Below, piece after piece: positions 1 to 11,298 of a stretch of 17,037 nucleotides of DNA. The translations under genes were made by a program, and so were the position numbers. Below the pieces are notes generated by a model that was not told where the DNA came from, did not search any database, and saw nothing but the letters and a program-made list of their open reading frames with translations. Origin of the DNA: a virus (Duplodnaviria; Heunggongvirae; Uroviricota; Caudoviricetes); IMG/VR virus record IMGVR_UViG_2700989544_000010. One strand, 5' to 3'. How positions within the stretch are numbered: position 1 is the stretch's first letter; each line of letters opens with the position of its first letter.

Positions 1-264
1 GGTTTCAGCTCCGGAGGACTCAAAGCCTTCCGGTGGTGTCTGCTCCTGCTCCCCGGCACGCCAGACCGCAGTCACACCGTGTATCACGGGATTACCGTCC
101 GTGTCCGTCAGCGGGGTTTTGTTCACCAGGATACTCTGCAGTCCCTTCACCGGGCCTTCTATCGGTCCCTCACCAATCGCATCAATCACACTCATCATCT
201 GCGTGGACTTAAGATTGTCCTTTGCCTCAACCGGCGTGTGCGCCCTGCCGCCACCTTTACCCAT
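1..264 (-). CDS. J: Tail tip / host-specificity protein J homolog, N-terminal fragment (continues beyond left edge of window)
   Basis: Minus-strand ATG at 264..262 opens a frame reading [52 protein letters not shown]..., which matches the remembered N-terminus of lambda gpJ. The frame is open to the window edge. Not in the ORF track because it is partial. Confidence 0.8.
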
Positions 265-397
265 AATGTTCATCTCAATTGGTATTATTAATCGCAGTGA
301 TAGGATATTGCACAGCTATTGCGCGATATCATCAGAACGCTGTTTGTTACCCTGTAACCAGCAAGCTCAGTCTGTTAACGGAATTAATGAGGGTTTT

Positions 398-925
398 ATG
401 AAATGTAAAATCATTGCTGCCATTGCCATGCTGACAGCAGCATCATGCGGATACGCAGCAGAACAGGAAGTCCCAATGAACCTTGTCAGTGCTGACGGAA
501 AAGAAGTCAGCATTGGAAAAATAACCATTCAGGAGACCCCCTACGGTCTGCTGTTCACACCAGCCCTTCACTCTCTGTCTGAAGGCATTCATGGTTTTCA
601 TGTGCACGAAAAAGGAAATTGCGCCCCGGCACTAAAAGACGGAAAACCGGTCGCAGCATTATCGGCTGGCGGTCACTTTGACCCGAAAAACACCGGCAAA
701 CATCTTGGCCCCTGGTCTCCGGATGGACACCTGGGCGACCTCCCTGCGCTGTTCGTGACGCATGACGGAAAAGCGAACTACCCGGTCCTGGCCCCGAGAC
801 TGAACTCATTAAAAGAGATTAAAGGGCGTTCTCTCATGCTTCATGCTGGCGGTGATAACCATCATGACCATCCGGAGCCCCTGGGCGGTGGTGGTGCGAG
901 AATGGCCTGCGGCATCATTCAATAA
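398..925 (+). CDS. sodC: Periplasmic Cu,Zn superoxide dismutase (phage-borne SodC)
   Basis: ATG at 398 is in frame with track ORF 101..925, with GAGGG about 5 nt upstream. N-terminus [20 protein letters not shown] looks like a signal peptide. Conserved Cu/Zn-SOD blocks are present: [39 protein letters not shown] and C-terminal [12 protein letters not shown]. The part of the track ORF upstream of 398 has no SOD similarity. Confidence 0.9.
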
Positions 926-932
926 TCAGTCA

Positions 933-960
933 GGTAAGGGGCGGGCCCCTTACCTTTATT
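933..960 (+). terminator. Putative intrinsic terminator of sodC (9-bp GC-rich stem GGTAAGGGG/CCCCTTACC, 4-nt loop, then TTTATT)
   Basis: Perfect inverted repeat 933..941 / 946..954 starting 8 nt after the sodC stop codon, followed by a T-rich tract on the plus strand only. Confidence 0.5.
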
Positions 961-1073
961 CCTCAGGACGATAAATCCTTTCTCCCTGAAAAGAACGGCA
1001 CATCCTCCCTCTCTGGGTTAATGTTTTTGTCGTGACATAAGAATAATTCCTTACACTCAATCTTCGTAACGCT

Positions 1074-1110
1074 CCCGCAGTTCCTGTCCGTGAGCACTGC
1101 GGGATTTTTT
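1074..1110 (+). terminator. Second plus-strand terminator-like hairpin (CCCGCAGT ... ACTGCGGG followed by ATTTTTTCGCTTTT)
   Basis: 8-bp inverted repeat 1074..1081 / 1096..1103 with a 14-nt loop and a T6 run on the plus strand. It lies just outside the stop codon of I (1116..1118). On the minus strand no U-tract follows, so it is unidirectional. Confidence 0.4.
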
Positions 1111-1115
1111 CGCTT

Positions 1116-1796
1116 TTATGCCTGCCGCCCGATAACCACCACCTTCCCGTCACCGCCTTCATCACGGGTACTGATGTCCTGGGATATACGGCGGGAGCCA
1201 ACCAGCATTTCCCCGTAAGGCACCGGCATCGGGTTCCCCTGGGCAATCATGTTATCCAGCGAGGAAAAGTACGTGTTCTGTCTGCCGTTATCCGTTGCGC
1301 GGTAATCCGGTACTTTAGCCTTCGGGGCAAGCATCTGAGCCACACCACCCAGTATCATGCTGGCTCCAAGTGAAAACAGCATCGTGGTGGCAGAAAAACC
1401 ACCGGCTGCCAGGGCTGAACCCCATAACGCCATTGATGCCCCGGCAGTGAAGAAAGAGCCCACGATGGCTGCCGCCCCCAGCACAATCTGCAGTCCACCC
1501 TTTCCGGCCCCGGCCAGTCGCGGCACAATGTGGATGACCGTTCCCTCACCCAGCTGTTCGTGAAGACGGGCGTACACCGCCTCCGGTGCCGTGTCCTCAC
1601 CGCGAATACGTATCTGGTACCAGCCTTCGTTCATCTGACGGCGGAATCCCGGCATCTGCATCGACAGGGCACGGATGGCTTCCGCTGCCGTGTTCACATA
1701 CAGGCTGAGGCGGCGGCCAAATCGTTGTAAATCCCCGTGAAGGCAGATACGTGCCAGTGGCGGTGACGCCAGGCTGAATGCGTTCGTCGTTGCCAT
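1116..1796 (-). CDS. I: Tail tip assembly protein I homolog
   Basis: Track ORF 1116..1796 (226 aa): MATTNAFSLASPPLARICLHGDLQRFGRR... with a hydrophobic Gly/Ala-rich centre and C-terminal NTYFSSLDNMIAQGN, matching remembered lambda gpI. Confidence 0.85.
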   Translation of the reverse strand: MATTNAFSLASPPLARICLHGDLQRFGRRLSLYVNTAAEAIRALSMQMPGFRRQMNEGWYQIRIRGEDTAPEAVYARLHEQLGEGTVIHIVPRLAGAGKGGLQIVLGAAAIVGSFFTAGASMALWGSALAAGGFSATTMLFSLGASMILGGVAQMLAPKAKVPDYRATDNGRQNTYFSSLDNMIAQGNPMPVPYGEMLVGSRRISQDISTRDEGGDGKVVVIGRQA

Positions 1797-2437
1797 TTTT
1801 CGGAATACCTCTCCCGTTTACTCAGTTGTTCAGGCAGATGGTGAAGCAGCTCACCGTTGCCGCAGTATATGGCGGCATGATTGGCCACCGATGCGCCAAA
1901 GCAGCACAGCAGGATATCGCCAGGCTGTGCGGAAGGCAGGGAAATCCTGTAAAAACCAGTCGCCGCCATATTGTCCAGGTAAAGGTTCTGACCGTTGCGC
2001 CACCAGTCATCCTCACGCACAAAATCCGGCAGCGTTATCCCCGCCAGATGGTATGCATCCCGGAACAGGGTGTAACAGTCCGTCACCCCGTGCTCAAAAC
2101 GACGCCCGGTCAGGTGCGGCACACAGCGGAATTTGTGAATTTCCCCCCGGCAGACCAGCCACCAGGGCAGGGCACTCTTTATCTGCAGCCGCCGGTCCGC
2201 CTCGCTCAGCCAGGGCAGACCACCAGGGTGGCTGTGAACCAGCGCCACAATCTCCCCCTGCATCTCTGCCTGCAGCCAGTCTTCCGGCGCAATACGAAAA
2301 TACGCCTCCGGCTCTGCAGAGATATTCACACAAGGGATATACCGTTCCCCCTCCGGCGTGCTTATCACGAAGCCGCACGACTCCGCAGGCGCACACCGCC
2401 GGGCATGCGCCAGAATCGCTGATTCAGTCTGTGTCAT
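1694..2437 (-). CDS. K: Tail tip assembly protein K homolog (JAB/MPN-like plus NlpC/P60-like domains)
   Basis: Internal ATG at 2437..2435 of track ORF 1694..2698 starts MTQTESAILAHARRC.... It contains a JAMM-like motif EIVALVHSHPGGLPWLSEAD and NlpC/P60-like Cys/His context (DCYTLFRDAYH ... NHAAIY). The 3' end overlaps I by about 100 nt in another frame, as I recall for lambda K/I. The track ORF residues upstream of MTQTES are judged non-coding extension. Confidence 0.85.
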   Translation of the reverse strand: MTQTESAILAHARRCAPAESCGFVISTPEGERYIPCVNISAEPEAYFRIAPEDWLQAEMQGEIVALVHSHPGGLPWLSEADRRLQIKSALPWWLVCRGEIHKFRCVPHLTGRRFEHGVTDCYTLFRDAYHLAGITLPDFVREDDWWRNGQNLYLDNMAATGFYRISLPSAQPGDILLCCFGASVANHAAIYCGNGELLHHLPEQLSKRERYSEKWQRRTHSAWRHRHWHVSAFTGIYNDLAAASACM

Positions 2438-2447
2438 AAAACAGGAT

Positions 2448-3147
2448 TTACTGCGAAAGTTTATTGATGGAAAGGAAACCGCCAAAATTGACCGCCATGC
2501 CGCGCATCTCACACCCGCGCATGCATTTACTGCATCTGTCCTTCCGGATATCCGTGGTGGGTTTATCGAACTCATCCGCCACAGCCCCGCCCGTGTAACC
2601 ACACTCATCAGAGCGGTAGGTCCACATACAGGTGTTCGCCAGCATGATACGACCGGGAAACAGCGCTCCGTCCGTCTCGGTCGGTGTGGCCAGCACAAAC
2701 GAGGCCGTCATGGCTGTCAGCTGCGACATCTGCTCCACCACCCAGCGGTCGCTCAGCTCCTGCTCCGGGTCCGCTTCCGGATTGCCCGCCACAAAATTCA
2801 CCGCATCCAGAAAACGGGCATACACCCGGCGGCGGACCACCGTGGCCCCCCACCAGGCTCTGCAGGTCCTCCGCCATCCCGGTGACCAGACCAAACAGAT
2901 TGGACACCGTCAGCGACGGTCTGGCACTGCTGCCCTTCCCGTTCATCTCAAAGCCACTGCCGTCAATCGGGTATGCCTGATATTGCCGCCCCTGCCAGGT
3001 GACCGCCTCCCCTTTTTCATTCAGCTCATTGCAGAAAAAATACCGCTCACCACCCTGTACCGTCAGGTCGATTTCCCAGAGTACCACCCGCGGTGACTGC
3101 TCTGATTTAACCGACTCGTTCAGACTTTCTTCGTGAATATCCTGCAT
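2448..3147 (-). pseudogene. L: Tail tip protein L homolog, disrupted by a frameshift near 2843..2852
   Basis: The N-terminal 101 codons (MQDIHEESLNE...MAEDLQSLVGG) are in the frame of track ORF 2608..3147. The remainder (ATVVRRRVYARFLDAVNFV...GGFLSINKLSQ) is in the frame of track ORF 2448..2894. The two halves together recapitulate lambda gpL. The switch occurs at a G6/C6 homopolymer (plus-strand CCCCCC at about 2846..2851). Confidence 0.8.
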
Positions 3148-3476
3148 CAGTTCACCACCTGCTTAAACTCGGCACTGAATTCAACCCGCAGCATGCGAAC
3201 CCGTGATGACCAGGCGGCACAGGTCACCTTTATCTGCCGCTAGGCATAAGGCGGTGTCCACAGAAACGCCTTCCAGCCACCGTGCTCTGCCAGGAATGCC
3301 TCCAGATGTCGGGCCTCCTCCCGGGTCACGGAAAGCGTCACACGGTATGTTTTCAGGTCAGCATTCAGCCCCGCCGCCATACGCTGCGAATACCCGTCAC
3401 CAAAACGCACTTCACGCACCGATGGCTGCGAGTTCACCTCCATATCCGGCTTCACTTTCCAGCGAAATGTTTTCAT
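3147..3476 (-). pseudogene. M: Tail protein M homolog interrupted by an in-frame TAG (amber) codon at 3242..3240
   Basis: Track ORF 3240..3476 gives MKTFRWKVKPDMEV...FLWTPPYA then TAG. Reading on in the same frame gives RQIKVTCAAWSSRVRMLRVEFSAEFKQVVN, ending at TGA 3149..3147, which overlaps the L start ATG. Both halves match lambda gpM, and the TAG sits where lambda has Trp in my recollection. Confidence 0.8.
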
Positions 3477-6028
3477 CGCCTGCCTCCGGAAAAGACGCCG
3501 CCATCACGCATCTGCGCCTGAATCTCATCCTGCGCCCCCTTGCGGGCCATGTCATACACCGCCTTCATCAGCTGCGGCCCCGCCTGTCCGTTGGTGCCGT
3601 CGTTCTGAATCACCACGTGATTGTTCTGATTAAAATTAATGCCTTCCGTCCGCCGCATCTGCGCCGGACTTCCGGCACCGCCGACATAACCGCCATCCGC
3701 ATACCCCCGCATCAGACGGTACAGGTTGCCGACACCAATCCGGCTGGTTGCCTCCTTCGTGAAGACAAATTCACCACGGTGAACAATCCCCGCTGGCTCA
3801 TATTTGTCGCCGGTTCCCGTAAATCCTCCGGTTGCAAAATGGAATTTCGCCGCAGCGGCCTGAATGGCTGTACCGCCTGACGCGGATGCGCCGCCACCAA
3901 CAGCCCCGCCAATGGCACTACCGATACTCCCGACTATCCCCACCATCGCCTGCTTCAGAAAAATCTCTGTCAGCATGGAGAGCACAGAACGGGTGAAACC
4001 ACGCCAGTTCTGTTCGCTGCCGGTCAGCATCGCTGCCATATTCTGTGCAATACCGTCAAAGGTCTGCGTGGCCACGCTTTTAACCTGCGAAAAACTGTCC
4101 GTCGCACTTTCTGCCCACTCGCCCCAGCCGGACTTCAGACCGGCCATCCAGCTTCCACGAAGCTGCTCCTCCGCAGACCAGGTGTTCTTCAGTGCAGATG
4201 TGGCCTTCGCCAGCGCATCCGGATTATCACCGTACACGTCACGAAGGCGCTGCTCTTCCGACTCCCGCTGCGCCTGACGGTCGGTGAGGCCGCGGGCTTT
4301 TGCGCTGATGGCTGCCTGCTTCGCGCTCTGCTGCTGTTCAAACCGCGCCGCCTGCTGTGCCAGCTCATTCAGCCGTTTCTGGTGTTCAACCTTGTCGCCA
4401 AGCTCAGCCAGCTGGCGTTTGTACTCCAGCGTCTCTTTCTCATGGGCCAGCAGGGATTTTTCCTGCTCAGATAACTGGCGTTTCGTGGCAGCCTCTTTCA
4501 GGACCGCATACTGATTTTCCGCTTTCCATAAATCGCGACGCTGCTGGCTGATTTTCTCATTCGCACCGCTGTGTTTTTCCAGCGTCCGGAGCTCGGTTTC
4601 AAGCGCCAGCAGGGCTGCATGCGCCCGGTCTTCCTGGCGCTCACCGGCAGACACCTTCACAGCAGATGGCTTTTTCAGCGTCGACTCATAATCCTTTTTC
4701 GCCGCCGCCATCAGCGTGTTGTAATCCGCCTGCAGGATTTTCCCGTCCTTCAGTGCCTTGTTCAGTTCTTCCTGACGGGCGGTATATTTCTCCAGCGGCG
4801 TCTGCAGCCGTTCGTAAGCTTTCTGCGCCTCTTCGGTATATTTCAGCCGTGACGCTTCAGTATCGCTCTGCTGCTGCGCATTTTTGTCCTGTTGACTCTG
4901 CTGTTCAGCCTTCTTTCTCGCGGCTTCAAGCGCAAGACGGGCCTTTTCACGATCATCCCAGTAACGCGCCCGCGCTTCATCGTTAACAAAATAATCATCC
5001 TTGCGCAGACTCCAGATGTCGTCCGCTTTCTTAAACGCAGCCTCTGCCTTAATCAGCATCTCCTGAGCGGTATCAGGACGACCAATATCCAGCACCGCAT
5101 CCCACATGGATTTGAATGCCCGTGCTGTCCTGTCTGCCCAGGTCTCTAGCGTACCCATGTTCTCTTTCAGGCGGCGGGTCTGGTCATCAAATCCTTTCGT
5201 CGCGGCCTCGTTCGCCGCCTGCAATGCCCCGGCTTCATCGCCGGAACGCTGCAACTGAGCAACATACGCAATCTGCTCCGCCGTCACGTTATGGAACTGG
5301 CGTGCCATCGCTGTCAGCCCTGACGTCGGGTCTGTGGTCAGCTTCCCGAAGGCTTCAGCGACCTTGTCCACCTCCACGCCGGATGCAGAGGAGAAACGCG
5401 CCACACTCTGGCTGATGGATGCAATCTGAGCCTCACCGCTTACTCCCGCCTTAACCAGTGCGCTGAGTGACTCGCTGGTCTGGTTAAACGTCAGCCCTGC
5501 CGCCTGCCCGGCTCTGGACAGGACCAGCATACGATCTGCCGTCAGACCCGACTGATTGCCGGAAAGGACCAGCGTTTTGTTGAAATCGGACAGGGTTGAG
5601 TTGCCCTGATACCAGGCATACGCCAGCGCACCTGTCGCCACCGCCAGCGAGGTGACCCCGACCATCGGCAGGGTGATCGCACCGGCAAGCCCCCTGAACA
5701 TGGGGATCATCCCGCCGAAGGAGTCCTTCACCTGACCGCCCTGTTGCAGCAGGATCAGCCAGGGATTCTGACCACCGGCAAGCTGCGTGGCGATATCCGT
5801 AAACTGTGCGGGCAGGGTTCGCATGGCCGCTTTATACTGCCCGACGGAAATCCCGGCTTTTTGTGCAGCCAGCGCCTGACGACTCAGGTTCTGCTCAACG
5901 ACACCGGCGGTTTTTCTGGCGTCAGTCTCCAGTCCGGAAAAATGACGCCTTACCCGGCTCATCTGCTCATCGAAACGGACCGCATCCAGACTCAGGTCAA
6001 TAACAAGATCACCAACCGGCTGGGACAT
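3473..6028 (-). CDS. H: Tail tape measure protein H homolog
   Basis: Track ORF 3473..6028 (851 aa): MSQPVGDLVIDLSLDAVRFDEQMSRVRRHFSG... is near-collinear with remembered lambda gpH. Its stop overlaps the M start (ATGA). Confidence 0.9.
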   Translation of the reverse strand: MSQPVGDLVIDLSLDAVRFDEQMSRVRRHFSGLETDARKTAGVVEQNLSRQALAAQKAGISVGQYKAAMRTLPAQFTDIATQLAGGQNPWLILLQQGGQVKDSFGGMIPMFRGLAGAITLPMVGVTSLAVATGALAYAWYQGNSTLSDFNKTLVLSGNQSGLTADRMLVLSRAGQAAGLTFNQTSESLSALVKAGVSGEAQIASISQSVARFSSASGVEVDKVAEAFGKLTTDPTSGLTAMARQFHNVTAEQIAYVAQLQRSGDEAGALQAANEAATKGFDDQTRRLKENMGTLETWADRTARAFKSMWDAVLDIGRPDTAQEMLIKAEAAFKKADDIWSLRKDDYFVNDEARARYWDDREKARLALEAARKKAEQQSQQDKNAQQQSDTEASRLKYTEEAQKAYERLQTPLEKYTARQEELNKALKDGKILQADYNTLMAAAKKDYESTLKKPSAVKVSAGERQEDRAHAALLALETELRTLEKHSGANEKISQQRRDLWKAENQYAVLKEAATKRQLSEQEKSLLAHEKETLEYKRQLAELGDKVEHQKRLNELAQQAARFEQQQSAKQAAISAKARGLTDRQAQRESEEQRLRDVYGDNPDALAKATSALKNTWSAEEQLRGSWMAGLKSGWGEWAESATDSFSQVKSVATQTFDGIAQNMAAMLTGSEQNWRGFTRSVLSMLTEIFLKQAMVGIVGSIGSAIGGAVGGGASASGGTAIQAAAAKFHFATGGFTGTGDKYEPAGIVHRGEFVFTKEATSRIGVGNLYRLMRGYADGGYVGGAGSPAQMRRTEGINFNQNNHVVIQNDGTNGQAGPQLMKAVYDMARKGAQDEIQAQMRDGGVFSGGRR

Positions 6029-6880
6029 ATCTCACACCTCCGGAAATCCCCGCTGAAGCCATCATTAATGCGGCATCATCCACCATGACATCCGCCACAT
6101 CCGCAGACGATAAAATCTCACGCCCACCGTCCCCACCAAACCGTACGCCTCCGGCAAGTCCTGCCGCTTTCTGCATCAGCATTTTTTCCTCATCCGGCAT
6201 CTCCGTCTGCGCTTCCTCACGCCGGGGGGCAAGCAGACTGAAATCAGAGGGATGCATATCCGGATCGCAAAAAAACAGGCTGAGTACGGCGTACGTCAGC
6301 CCGGAAAAATGCATATCCAGTTGGGTATCGAGAAAATAATGCGTACGGTAAAAATGTCGCCAGTCGGCATATTCGGTGGATGTCATCCCGGCAAGCATGG
6401 CGCGCCAGTCAGGCCTCCCCATCTCACGCGCCAGTCTGAGGGCAAAATTCAGCTCGCCGTCGAAGACTTTCCCGCAGAAAAATCATCATCAGTCAGCGCG
6501 TTATTTTTCGCCACTTCGGTGCTGTCAGTATCCGCATGAACAGCCCCGCTCATCCCGGACAGACACAACACCACATCTTCCGCCCGGGCAATGGCATCCG
6601 CAGGCCAGGTGGTGAGCACCTCCTGTTCGATCTGCATCACAGCCTCATTCATTGACGGTGATGCCGTTTTCTGCGGATGGTTATGCCACAGGGACATCGC
6701 CACCAGAAACGCGCCGGTTCTGACGAGATCTTCCACGCTTACCTGCAGGTTGCCGCTGGATTCTGCCTGTTCTGCACGCCGTTTCAGGAGGGCAAGATGC
6801 TCAATACGCTGCAGCGCAGACAATTCGGAAAGCGTGACGGACACACCGTTATATTCAAATTGTTCTGTTTTCAGAAACAT
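6009..6880 (-). CDS. G-T: Tail assembly chaperone G-T fusion made by programmed -1 ribosomal frameshift at G GGA AAG (6473..6467)
   Basis: The slippery heptamer GGGAAAG lies on the minus strand at 6473..6467 within the last codons of G. The -1 frame then reads GKVFDGELNFALRLAREMGRPDWRAMLAGMTSTEYADW..., joining track ORF 6009..6422, which matches lambda gpT. The frame arithmetic is consistent (G frame to T frame is -1). Confidence 0.75.
6449..6880 (-). CDS. G: Tail assembly chaperone G homolog
   Basis: Track ORF 6449..6880 (143 aa): MFLKTEQFEYNGVSVTLSELSALQRIEHLALLKRRAEQAES... matches lambda gpG and ends ...FSAGKSSTAS. Confidence 0.85.
   Translation of the reverse strand: MFLKTEQFEYNGVSVTLSELSALQRIEHLALLKRRAEQAESSGNLQVSVEDLVRTGAFLVAMSLWHNHPQKTASPSMNEAVMQIEQEVLTTWPADAIARAEDVVLCLSGMSGAVHADTDSTEVAKNNALTDDDFSAGKSSTAS
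6467..6473 (-). promoter_or_regulatory. Programmed -1 frameshift slippery sequence G GGA AAG
   Basis: Exact heptamer in the G reading frame (gcG GGA AAG), the same sequence and context as the lambda G-T frameshift site. Confidence 0.75.
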
Positions 6881-6893
6881 GTATTACCTCCGT

Positions 6894-7646
6894 TTACCCT
6901 GCAGCGCCCGCTTCAGTAACGGTGACTTCAGCCACTGCGGCGAACTGACCATTTCCGCTCACCACAGGGATCTGCACCTTACCTGTCGCCACGCCGTTTA
7001 CCGTAATTGTCATATCTTTCACACTAATGGTGGCTTTCGACGGATCGGCGGAAACCGCTCTGAACGTCTTGTCTGTTGCACTTTCCGGCTCAAAAGAAAC
7101 CGTCAGGGTGGTTGTTTTCCCTTTTGCCACCGTACCGGATGTCGGCGTCACCTTAATCGCACTGACCGGCGTAATTTTGCTGCGTTCTTCCGCTACAGAA
7201 GGTTTACCCACGTTAGTGACTTTCACCGTGCGGGTGATCACTTCTTTCGCCGTCACGGCCTTACCGATACTGCTGACCCAGCCACGAAACACATCCACCG
7301 TGCCATTCGGAAAACGGATTTTATAGGCCCGGACATCGCCGCTTTCAAACCAGCCTATAAGCCCTTTCTGGCCTTCCTCTCCCGGTTTCCAGGCCAGCGT
7401 AAAACTGGTATCACCTGCAGATTTCTGCCCCTGCCCGGTCGCGGTCCAGTCCGCGTCTTCATCATCCAGGTAGTTATCATCGTAGGATTCTGCCGTCATC
7501 TCGCCCGGCGTCAGATCCTTCACCTTAGCCAGTCGCTGCCAGTCATCGTCTGACAACGGGTTTGCATAAGCGTCACCCTGACCGTTGTAAACCCACAGAG
7601 TGGTACCGGCACCTTTTACCGGCTCAAGGGGATTTGGTGTTGCCAT
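6894..7646 (-). CDS. V: Major tail tube protein V homolog with C-terminal Ig-like region
   Basis: Track ORF 6894..7646 (250 aa): [50 protein letters not shown]... matches lambda gpV. The C-terminal about 80 aa is Thr/Val/Ser-rich, Ig-like. Confidence 0.9.
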
Positions 7647-10845: not shown

Positions 10846-11298
10846 TCATGGCATAGCCATGAGCATTTTCACGTCCGCATCACCGTCTGCTGACGTCTGT
10901 GGCACGCCACCCTGTACCGCTGCCGGTGAATGGTTCGCCATGATGCGTTCAAACAGGGCGGTTGTGGATGCAGAGACCGGTTCTGCCTTACCTGATCCCG
11001 CAGCCAGCACAGCCCGGGCGCTCTCCACAGTCATTCCCGGGCAGGCAGCCAGCTGTTCAGCCTGCGCCTCAGCCCCTTTTGCCTCATCCAGTGCCATGAT
11101 CTGATCACGGAGTGAGGGTCCGGCATCCGCCTGCGGTGAAGCAGCCAGGATCGGGCGGGCTTTTTCCACCGTCATCTCCGGCATCGCCGCCAGCGTTGCC
11201 GCCAGTTGTTCACGTCCTTTCGCTTCCTGGCATGTCAGGATCCCCATCACTCGCTGGTTCTCCTGCGCGGCGGCTTCCGTTGCAGTTAATTGCGGCAT
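10846..11298 (-). CDS. Nu3: Putative scaffold protein Nu3-like product from an in-frame internal start within C
   Basis: In-frame ATG at 11298..11296 (MPQLTATEAAAQENQRVMGILTCQEAKGREQ...) is preceded by a strong GAGGAGG Shine-Dalgarno 5-6 nt upstream. This mirrors the nested C/Nu3 arrangement of lambda. Confidence 0.55.
   Translation of the reverse strand: MPQLTATEAAAQENQRVMGILTCQEAKGREQLAATLAAMPEMTVEKARPILAASPQADAGPSLRDQIMALDEAKGAEAQAEQLAACPGMTVESARAVLAAGSGKAEPVSASTTALFERIMANHSPAAVQGGVPQTSADGDADVKMLMAMP

What the first reader, a model, noticed from the sequence alone, without database searches (positions are those of the whole stretch)
2840..2855. Frameshift in tail gene L at a G6/C6 homopolymer
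The N-terminal 101 codons and the C-terminal about 132 codons of an otherwise lambda-like L lie in different frames. The junction is at the run CCCCCC (plus strand, about 2846..2851), consistent with a 1-nt insertion or 2-nt deletion relative to an intact L. The homopolymer context means this could be a genuine slippage mutation or a sequencing/assembly artefact.
Basis: seen in the sequence. Interest (0 to 1): 0.45.

Follow-up and report, generated by a model that had tools for sequence, protein, structure and literature searches.

The report
Broken tail gene L in prophage
A lambda-like prophage of E. coli has one extra G in a run of Gs that breaks its tail-tip gene L, and the neighbouring gene M carries a stop codon, so this is an ordinary, genuinely mutated, decaying prophage and not a sequencing error or a new mechanism.

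Summary
The plus strand has CCCCCC at 2846-2851, which is G6 on the coding (minus) strand. In-frame relatives have G5 or GGGTG there. It is a 1-nt insertion, not a 2-nt deletion. Deleting one G restores a 232-codon ORF that is 76% identical to lambda gpL with no gaps.

The change is very probably a real, inherited mutation:
- The L gene with G6 is base-for-base identical in all six other assemblies and viral contigs compared over its full length, and in two more over the 357 nt their contigs hold. Its 119-residue contig-end fragment is recorded on 54 contigs.
- It is the only indel in 11.2 kb against the closest complete genome.
- The lineage then collected further damage: a TGG-to-TAG amber at M codon 79 (window 3240-3242), a J frameshift in a sister strain, and an IS end at 16921.

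The frameshift product keeps 100 native residues. It lacks the rest of the hub beta-sandwich and the whole [4Fe-4S] domain, so the prophage cannot build a tail tip alone. Co-resident prophages with an intact L could complement or repair it.

I found no support for programmed recoding. This is a known kind of prophage pseudogene, and NCBI's PGAP pipeline already labels the same lesion "frameshifted" in another strain. Interest is low.

The parts
2846..2851 (-). G6 homopolymer (C6 on the plus strand). This is the site of the 1-nt insertion; relatives have G5 or GGGTG.
2848..3147 (-). L codons 1-100, the N-terminal part of the hub HDI beta-sandwich. The start ATG at 3147-3145 overlaps the M stop (TGATG).
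2608..2847 (-). Out-of-frame tail of the 179-aa frameshift product: 79 Gly/Pro-rich codons with no homology to L, then the stop at 2608-2610.
2448..2846 (-). L codons 101-232 in the other frame, with the stop TAA at 2448-2450. This part encodes the rest of the HDI domain and the [4Fe-4S] domain with its four coordinating Cys. It is not reached by ribosomes reading from the L start.
3147..3476 (-). Tail gene M (distal tail protein, 109 codons), interrupted by an amber codon at codon 79.
3240..3242 (-). TAG replacing TGG (Trp79) in M. The changed base is window 3241.
3473..6028 (-). Tape measure gene H. It is intact and its product is 100% identical to that of OkiPb01713. Included as context.
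1697..2437 (-). Tail gene K (C40/JAB peptidase, 247 aa). It is intact and carries a mosaic patch relative to OkiPb01713. Included as context.

Best explanation
One G was added to a G5 run in codons 99-101 of tail-tip gene L of a lambdoid prophage that also carries sodC. The most likely cause is replication slippage. The mutation is real and has been inherited within an E. coli lineage.

Ribosomes that start at the L ATG read 100 native codons, then 79 out-of-frame codons, and stop at 2608. The product lacks the second half of the HDI beta-sandwich and the whole C-terminal [4Fe-4S] domain (Cys173/182/205/212). It therefore cannot form the gpL3-gpJ3 hub ring.

After L was lost, a TGG-to-TAG nonsense mutation arose in the upstream, translationally overlapping gene M in the sub-lineage that this window belongs to. 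All other late genes in the window remain intact, so the decay is recent.

Alone, the prophage cannot make tail tips. It can probably still make heads. It could be rescued in trans, or repaired by recombination, using nearly identical L and M genes of co-resident lambdoid prophages.

Shown here: the insertion, the amber codon, their distribution among assemblies, and the domains lost. Inferred: slippage as the cause, loss of function, the order of events, and rescue by other prophages.
For: - The extra G is seen against four in-frame relatives. It is the only indel in 11.2 kb against OkiPb01713.
- Repairing it gives a 232-aa protein 76% identical to lambda gpL. The repaired protein scores 304 bits on PF05100 and matches PDB 8iyk chain L at 5e-122.
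- The exact 179-aa product is on record on 5 contigs, including PVMF01000005.1 (100% identical to the window over 7147 nt), CP027597.1 and BGBU01000109.1.
- The 119-aa contig-end version is on 54 contigs, for example AAREYT010000079.1, which is shared by 14 samples.
- The L DNA is 100% identical in all of these.
- G6 occurs with M TGG in CP027597, AAREYT and AASZVW. It occurs with M TAG in PVMF01, BGBU01, AEZJ02 and two IMG/VR contigs. The L lesion is therefore older than the M lesion.
- Further damage in the same lineage: J is split in CP027597, and an IS end cuts ylcI/ynfO at 16921.
- Assemblies where G6 is an artefact look different. They have 12-14 single-base indels in 1-3.5 kb, whereas the window lineage has one.
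- G6 is rare. It is the best match in 1 of 1844 complete-genome records. In IMG/VR, 2 contigs have G6 and at least 120 have G5.
- Domain boundaries and the Fe-S cysteines of gpL come from PMC10721106.
- A second prophage in IMG genome 2534681674 has an intact L that is 97.8% identical. Genomes with this gene hold a median of 2 and up to 12 copies.
- Complementation among defective lambdoid prophages is argued in PMC2669165.
Against: - No reads could be inspected.
- The 4.4-Mb source-like contig suggests a long-read assembly, and this same G5 run is miscalled as G6 in noisy assemblies. The tract is therefore error-prone in sequencing as well.
- That the draft assemblies with short contigs are Illumina data is my inference from accession style and contig size. 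It is not a recorded fact.
- Loss of function was not tested. A low level of +1 slippage on GGG-G would restore some full-length L.
Confidence: 0.9

Rival explanations
1. Sequencing or assembly artefact. The true run is G5, L is intact, and the extra G is a homopolymer miscall.
For: The same run appears as G6 in three assemblies that carry 12-14 single-base indels within 1-3.5 kb (CP058233.1, CP058922.1, JAVRGH010000002.1). The window matches a 4.4-Mb contig, which suggests long reads.
Against: - The identical L allele with G6 recurs in other records: CP027597.1, BGBU01000109.1, AEZJ02000009.1, two IMG/VR contigs, and a partial product on 54 contigs.
- The window has no other indel in 11.2 kb against its closest relative.
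- All 18 other late genes checked are full length.
- The neighbouring M lesion is a substitution, not a homopolymer error.
Confidence: 0.04
2. Recoding. L is still expressed full length from the G6 allele, either by a +1 ribosomal shift on GGG-G or by RNA polymerase slippage on the G run.
For: tRNA-Gly could re-pair perfectly after a +1 slip on G GGG GGC (read from the sequence). The region folds into a GC-rich hairpin with z = -2.2.
Against: - The G6 configuration is not conserved. Relatives have G5 or GGGTG and one continuous ORF.
- There is no stop or rare codon in the A site; it is GGC.
- There is no Shine-Dalgarno-like element at the 3-nt spacing seen in prfB (sequence; the prfB rule is from my own knowledge).
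- The run lies inside the predicted stem rather than upstream of it, and 6 of 200 shuffles fold as well.
- No Rfam family matches.
- The lineage went on to lose M, and in a sister strain J, as expected once L was already non-functional.
- The genuine lambda-type -1 slippery heptamer GGGAAAG is present where expected, at the end of G (6467-6473).
Confidence: 0.03
3. Phase-variable switch. The G run toggles between G5 and G6 at a useful rate, turning tail production of this prophage on and off.
For: Homopolymers are slippage-prone. G6 is also seen in a divergent L background (CP034801.1, annotated 'frameshifted').
Against: - A 5-6 nt run is shorter than typical contingency tracts (my own knowledge).
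- Every member of the window-type lineage sampled has G6. None has reverted to G5 with an otherwise identical L.
- The other multi-background cases come from noisy assemblies.
- The M amber in this window would keep the tail off even after reversion.
Confidence: 0.03

Closest known systems
Bacteriophage lambda gpL (tail tip / hub protein L; PDB 8IYK chain L; Pfam PF05100)
   Same: The repaired ORF has the same length (232 aa) and is 76% identical with no gaps. The gene order H-M-L-K-I-J is the same. The four Fe-S cysteines are conserved.
   Different: Here the ORF is broken after codon 100. Lambda itself has no homopolymer at this place; it reads CTGGTCGGCGGAACG.
L pseudogene annotated 'frameshifted' by PGAP in E. 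coli 2010C-3142 (NZ_CP034801.1, AYR10_RS25605)
   Same: The same G6 sits at the same codon of a prophage L gene. The 71 nt around the site are identical.
   Different: The L background differs (43 substitutions in 700 nt). M is intact and of another allele. The tape measure gene has a different length. Independent origin and recombination cannot be told apart.
Defective lambdoid prophages of EHEC O157 Sakai (Asadulghani et al. 2009, PMC2669165)
   Same: These are lambda-like prophages with point defects in morphogenesis genes. They sit among several nearly identical co-resident prophages that can supply virion proteins or recombine.
   Different: That study did not describe this particular lesion. 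Whether this window's host strain shows such interactions was not tested.
Frameshift in the side tail fibre gene stf of laboratory lambda
   Same: A single frameshift silences a tail gene in an otherwise complete phage, as cited in PMC10721106.
   Different: stf is dispensable for plaque formation. L is required for tail assembly (classical lambda genetics, from my own knowledge).
Programmed -1 frameshift of lambda G/GT
   Same: It is a frame change inside the tail gene cluster. Its slippery heptamer GGGAAAG is present in this window at 6467-6473.
   Different: That site is conserved and lies at the 3' end of G. The L site is a rare allele, needs a +1 shift and has no recognisable stimulator.

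Membership tests
Lambda gpL / Phage_tail_L (PF05100) | Sequence homology over the whole family profile | tested here: met
   The N-terminal ORF matches profile positions 3-73 and the C-terminal frame matches 72-206. The repaired protein scores 304 bits (cut-off 25). It is 76% identical to gpL and matches 8iyk_L at 5e-122.
Lambda gpL / Phage_tail_L (PF05100) | Position between M and K in the H-M-L-K-I-J tail-tip module | tested here: met
   tblastn mapping of all neighbouring genes. Annotated relatives show the same order.
Lambda gpL / Phage_tail_L (PF05100) | Four conserved Cys that coordinate the [4Fe-4S] cluster (Cys173, 182, 205, 212 in lambda) | tested here: met
   All four align in the C-terminal frame. 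The residue numbers come from PMC10721106. They lie downstream of the frameshift, so they are not translated from the L start.
Lambda gpL / Phage_tail_L (PF05100) | One uninterrupted ORF of about 232 codons (a functional gene) | tested here: not met
   The gene is 700 nt with the frame broken after codon 100. It belongs to the family as a pseudogene.
Programmed ribosomal frameshift site | The two-frame arrangement is conserved among functional relatives | tested here: not met
   In-frame G5 or GGGTG is the best match in 1843 of 1844 complete-genome records. Among fetched loci, 113 have G5 and 11 have G6. In IMG/VR, at least 120 have G5 and 2 have G6.
Programmed ribosomal frameshift site | Slippery site plus a stimulator: a hungry or stop codon, a correctly spaced SD-like element, or a downstream structure | tested here: not met
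   The A-site codon is GGC and no stop codon is present. The run lies inside the predicted hairpin, not upstream of it, and the z-score is only -2.2. There is no Rfam match.
Phase-variable homopolymer (contingency locus) | Tract length varies among otherwise identical close relatives | tested here: not met
   All loci with a window-type L have G6. No G5 copy with an otherwise identical L was found among 146 loci.
Defective (cryptic) lambdoid prophage | Inactivating lesions in essential phage genes | tested here: met
   L frameshift and M amber. An IS end lies at 16921.
Defective (cryptic) lambdoid prophage | Inability to produce infectious particles on its own | not testable with these tools
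   This needs induction and plating in a host free of other prophages.

The most novel reading that the evidence does not exclude
The G5 run in L is a recurrent break point, and prophages broken there are repaired by gene conversion from co-resident lambdoid prophages.

Over the 3.4 kb available for AAREYT-type contigs, OkiPb01713 differs from the G6 / M-TGG lineage only by a patch of about 107 bp (window 2787-2893). That patch spans the frameshift site and carries a common foreign L allele (GGGTG). It could be a direct footprint of such a repair, which would make L a reversible on/off point for tail production within a prophage pool.
Probability: 0.1. Interest if true: 0.3.

Novelty: already known. 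Interest (0 to 1): 0.08.

Why it matters
The main value is for annotation. L (2448-3147) and M (3147-3476) should be labelled as pseudogenes, and the prophage as tail-defective.

The case also gives a practical way to tell a real homopolymer frameshift from a miscall without access to reads. A real one shows the same allele in independent assemblies and no other indels nearby. A miscall sits among many scattered single-base indels.

Biologically it adds one more example of early prophage decay in E. coli strains that carry several lambdoid prophages. In such strains, defects in minor tail genes can be masked or repaired by sister prophages.

Tried and rejected
- A scan of GTDB species-representative genomes for the G6 junction found nothing. 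This is uninformative, because E. coli is represented by a single genome there.
- A literature search for the assembly accessions (PVMF, CP027597, BGBU) found nothing, so the host serotype remains unknown.
- The 78-aa M product is listed on 199 contigs. I did not use this as a frequency of the amber allele. Most of those copies are gene calls cut off at a contig end after codon 78. Only PVMF01, BGBU01, AEZJ02 and two IMG/VR contigs were confirmed to carry TAG.
- I first read G6 in several other L backgrounds (P0002, P0005, P0013) as proof of a recurrent hotspot. I rejected that reading because those assemblies have 12-14 single-base indels per 1-3.5 kb.
- Tandem Repeats Finder found no repeat that explains the 150-bp in-frame difference in the gpC-like gene.
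- Rfam gave no match. The RNA fold around the run is only modestly better than shuffles.
- The long plus-strand ORFs antisense to L (2358-2885, 2632-3096) probably reflect the GC-rich coding region. I did not pursue them.

Full report
**What is there.**
The window is the late (head and tail) region of a lambda-like prophage, encoded on the minus strand. tblastn with the annotated proteins of the closest complete genome (E. coli OkiPb01713, 99.6% identical over 16.9 kb) maps these genes in lambda order:
- Nu1, A, W, B, C, D, E, FI, FII, Z, U, V, G, T
- H at 3473-6028
- M at 3147-3476
- L at 2448-3147
- K at 1697-2437
- I at 1116-1697

A sodC gene lies on the opposite strand at 398-925. The start of J is at the left edge, inferred from the gene call in L007.

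**The observation.**
The plus strand has six Cs at 2846-2851. The coding strand reads CTG GTG GGG GGC CAC.

The intact L of OkiPb01713 maps in two frames. The N-terminal piece starts at 3147 in frame -1 and stays homologous as far as the G run. Residues 100-232 run from 2849 to 2451 in frame -2. Pfam PF05100 covers profile positions 3-73 in the 179-aa ORF that starts at the L ATG, and positions 72-206 in the other frame.

An alignment with four in-frame relatives shows a single extra G. DEC5E, Stx2_EH2201 and PhiR5_1 have G5, and OkiPb01713 has GGGTG. Against OkiPb01713 this is the only indel in 11.2 kb.

Deleting one G gives a 699-nt, 232-codon ORF. It is 76% identical to lambda gpL over all 232 residues with no gaps. 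It scores 304 bits on PF05100 and 5e-122 against PDB 8iyk chain L.

So the lesion is a 1-nt insertion, not a 2-nt deletion. Lambda itself has no homopolymer here (CTGGTCGGCGGAACG).

M codon 79 is TAG where relatives have TGG (Trp, also Trp in lambda) or TAC. This is window 3240-3242, with the changed base at 3241. It removes the last 31 of 109 residues. The M stop and the L start overlap (TGATG at 3145-3149). Early termination in M probably also lowers L translation, but that is an inference.

**Real mutation or artefact?**
Several lines point to a real mutation.
- The exact 179-aa frameshift product is on record on 5 contigs. Three distinct places were returned: PVMF01000005.1 (a 4.4-Mb contig, 100% identical to window 1-7147), CP027597.1 and BGBU01000109.1.
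- A 119-aa version, cut off by contig ends, is on 54 contigs. Examples are AAREYT010000079.1, which is shared by 14 samples, and AASZVW010000061.1.
- AEZJ02000009.1 and two IMG/VR contigs also carry G6.
- The L DNA is 100% identical in all of these.

Assemblies where G6 is clearly an artefact look quite different. CP058233.1, CP058922.1 and JAVRGH010000002.1 carry 12-14 single-base indels within 1-3.5 kb. The window-type lineage carries exactly one.

I cannot see reads. My belief that the short-contig drafts are short-read assemblies is an inference. Even so, one identical allele across many records, together with a neighbouring substitution lesion, makes an artefact unlikely (about 4%).

**Order of events.**
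G6 occurs with an intact M (TGG) in CP027597, AAREYT and AASZVW. It occurs with the M amber in PVMF01, BGBU01, AEZJ02 and two IMG/VR contigs. The L frameshift therefore came first and the M amber arose later in a sub-lineage.

In CP027597, J is also split into 138 aa and 1036 aa. In the window, an IS3-family element begins at 16921 and cuts a ylcI/ynfO-like gene. This pattern fits relaxed selection after loss of function. All other late genes in the window are full length and mostly 100% identical to those of OkiPb01713, so the decay is recent.

**Consequence.**
The cryo-EM study of lambda (PMC10721106) describes gpL as follows:
- a C-terminal iron-binding domain (residues 154-232), with Cys173, 182, 205 and 212 holding a [4Fe-4S] cluster.

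The frameshift product keeps only residues 1-100, followed by 79 unrelated residues. gpM forms the hexameric ring that joins the tip to the tube, and here it lacks its last 31 residues. Classical lambda genetics (my own knowledge) holds that M and L are both needed for tail assembly. The prophage should therefore be unable to make tails alone.

**Rescue.**
E. coli genomes that have this gene hold a median of 2 and up to 12 copies. IMG genome 2534681674 carries the G6/TAG prophage (L022). It also carries a second prophage (L044) with an intact L that is 97.8% identical at the protein level. Complementation and recombination among defective lambdoid prophages are argued for O157 Sakai (PMC2669165).

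One possible footprint of repair stands out. Over the 3.4 kb available, OkiPb01713 differs from the G6/TGG contigs only by seven substitutions and the indel. All of these lie in window 2796-2893, which spans the frameshift site. That patch allele is common in other prophage L genes, with 355 records at 99% identity or more. The direction of change is unresolved. Other mosaic patches exist in K, J and the gpC-like gene, so coincidence is quite possible.

**Rivals.**
Programmed +1 frameshifting or transcriptional slippage is not supported:
- The arrangement is a rare allele.
- There is no hungry or stop codon and no SD-like element at the right spacing.
- The predicted hairpin contains the run rather than following it, and it is only modestly better than shuffles.
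- Rfam finds nothing.
- By contrast, the canonical lambda G/GT slippery heptamer GGGAAAG is present at 6467-6473.

Phase variation is unlikely. No otherwise identical G5 copy was found among 146 loci, and the M amber would keep the tail off in any case.

**Verdict.**
The mutation-versus-artefact question is settled in favour of a genuine inherited mutation, short of reading the raw data. This is a known kind of thing: PGAP already labels the same lesion 'frameshifted' in strain 2010C-3142. Interest is low.

Noticed in passing
window 3240-3242 (minus strand): There is an amber codon (TGG to TAG) at codon 79 of tail gene M, directly upstream of L. It is present in only part of the G6 lineage, so it is younger than the L frameshift.
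   Followed up: yes
window 16921-17037: Homology to the related prophage stops at 16921, inside a ylcI/ynfO-like gene after codon 39. The remaining 117 nt match a multi-copy element annotated as transposase in thousands of E. coli records. From memory this is the left end of an IS3-family element of the IS629/IS1203 type.
   Followed up: partly
window 11189-11226: The gpC-like S49 peptidase gene is 150 bp (50 codons) shorter than in OkiPb01713, and the change is in frame. A short diverged stretch of about 38 bp sits at the junction. No tandem repeat was detected in either sequence.
   Followed up: partly
window 2787-2893 versus L003/L006 (OkiPb01713): The closest complete genome differs from the G6 lineage in L only by a patch of about 107 bp that spans the frameshift site and carries a common foreign L allele (GGGTG). 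It could be a gene-conversion repair of the frameshift, or unrelated mosaicism.
   Followed up: partly
window 1728-2291 and 31-190: Clusters of substitutions against OkiPb01713 lie in K and at the start of J. CP027597.1 differs from the window at the same K and J positions; BGBU01000109.1 does so in K only. These are recombination patches specific to the window's sub-lineage. K remains intact.
   Followed up: no
window 398-925 (plus strand): A sodC (Cu/Zn superoxide dismutase) cargo gene sits between I and J on the opposite strand. Its product is 100% identical to that of OkiPb01713.
   Followed up: no
window 6467-6473 (minus strand): The canonical lambda G/GT -1 slippery heptamer GGGAAAG is present near the end of G. 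It is a genuine programmed frameshift site in the same gene cluster and a useful contrast to the L lesion.
   Followed up: partly
L145 (CP058233.1), L146 (CP058922.1), L147 (JAVRGH010000002.1): These public assemblies carry 12-14 single-base indels per 1-3.5 kb across the tail genes, including G6 at this same run. They are probably uncorrected long-read errors, which inflate the apparent number of L frameshift variants in protein databases.
   Followed up: yes
L014-L019 (contig ends): Many draft assemblies break exactly after M codon 78. This yields 78-aa 'partial' M proteins identical to the amber-truncated product. The count of 199 contigs for that protein is therefore mostly an assembly-break effect, not the amber allele.
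   Followed up: partly
window 2760-2875 (minus strand RNA): The G run lies inside a predicted GC-rich hairpin of -57.6 kcal/mol (z = -2.2; 6 of 200 shuffles fold as well). It is probably incidental.
   Followed up: partly
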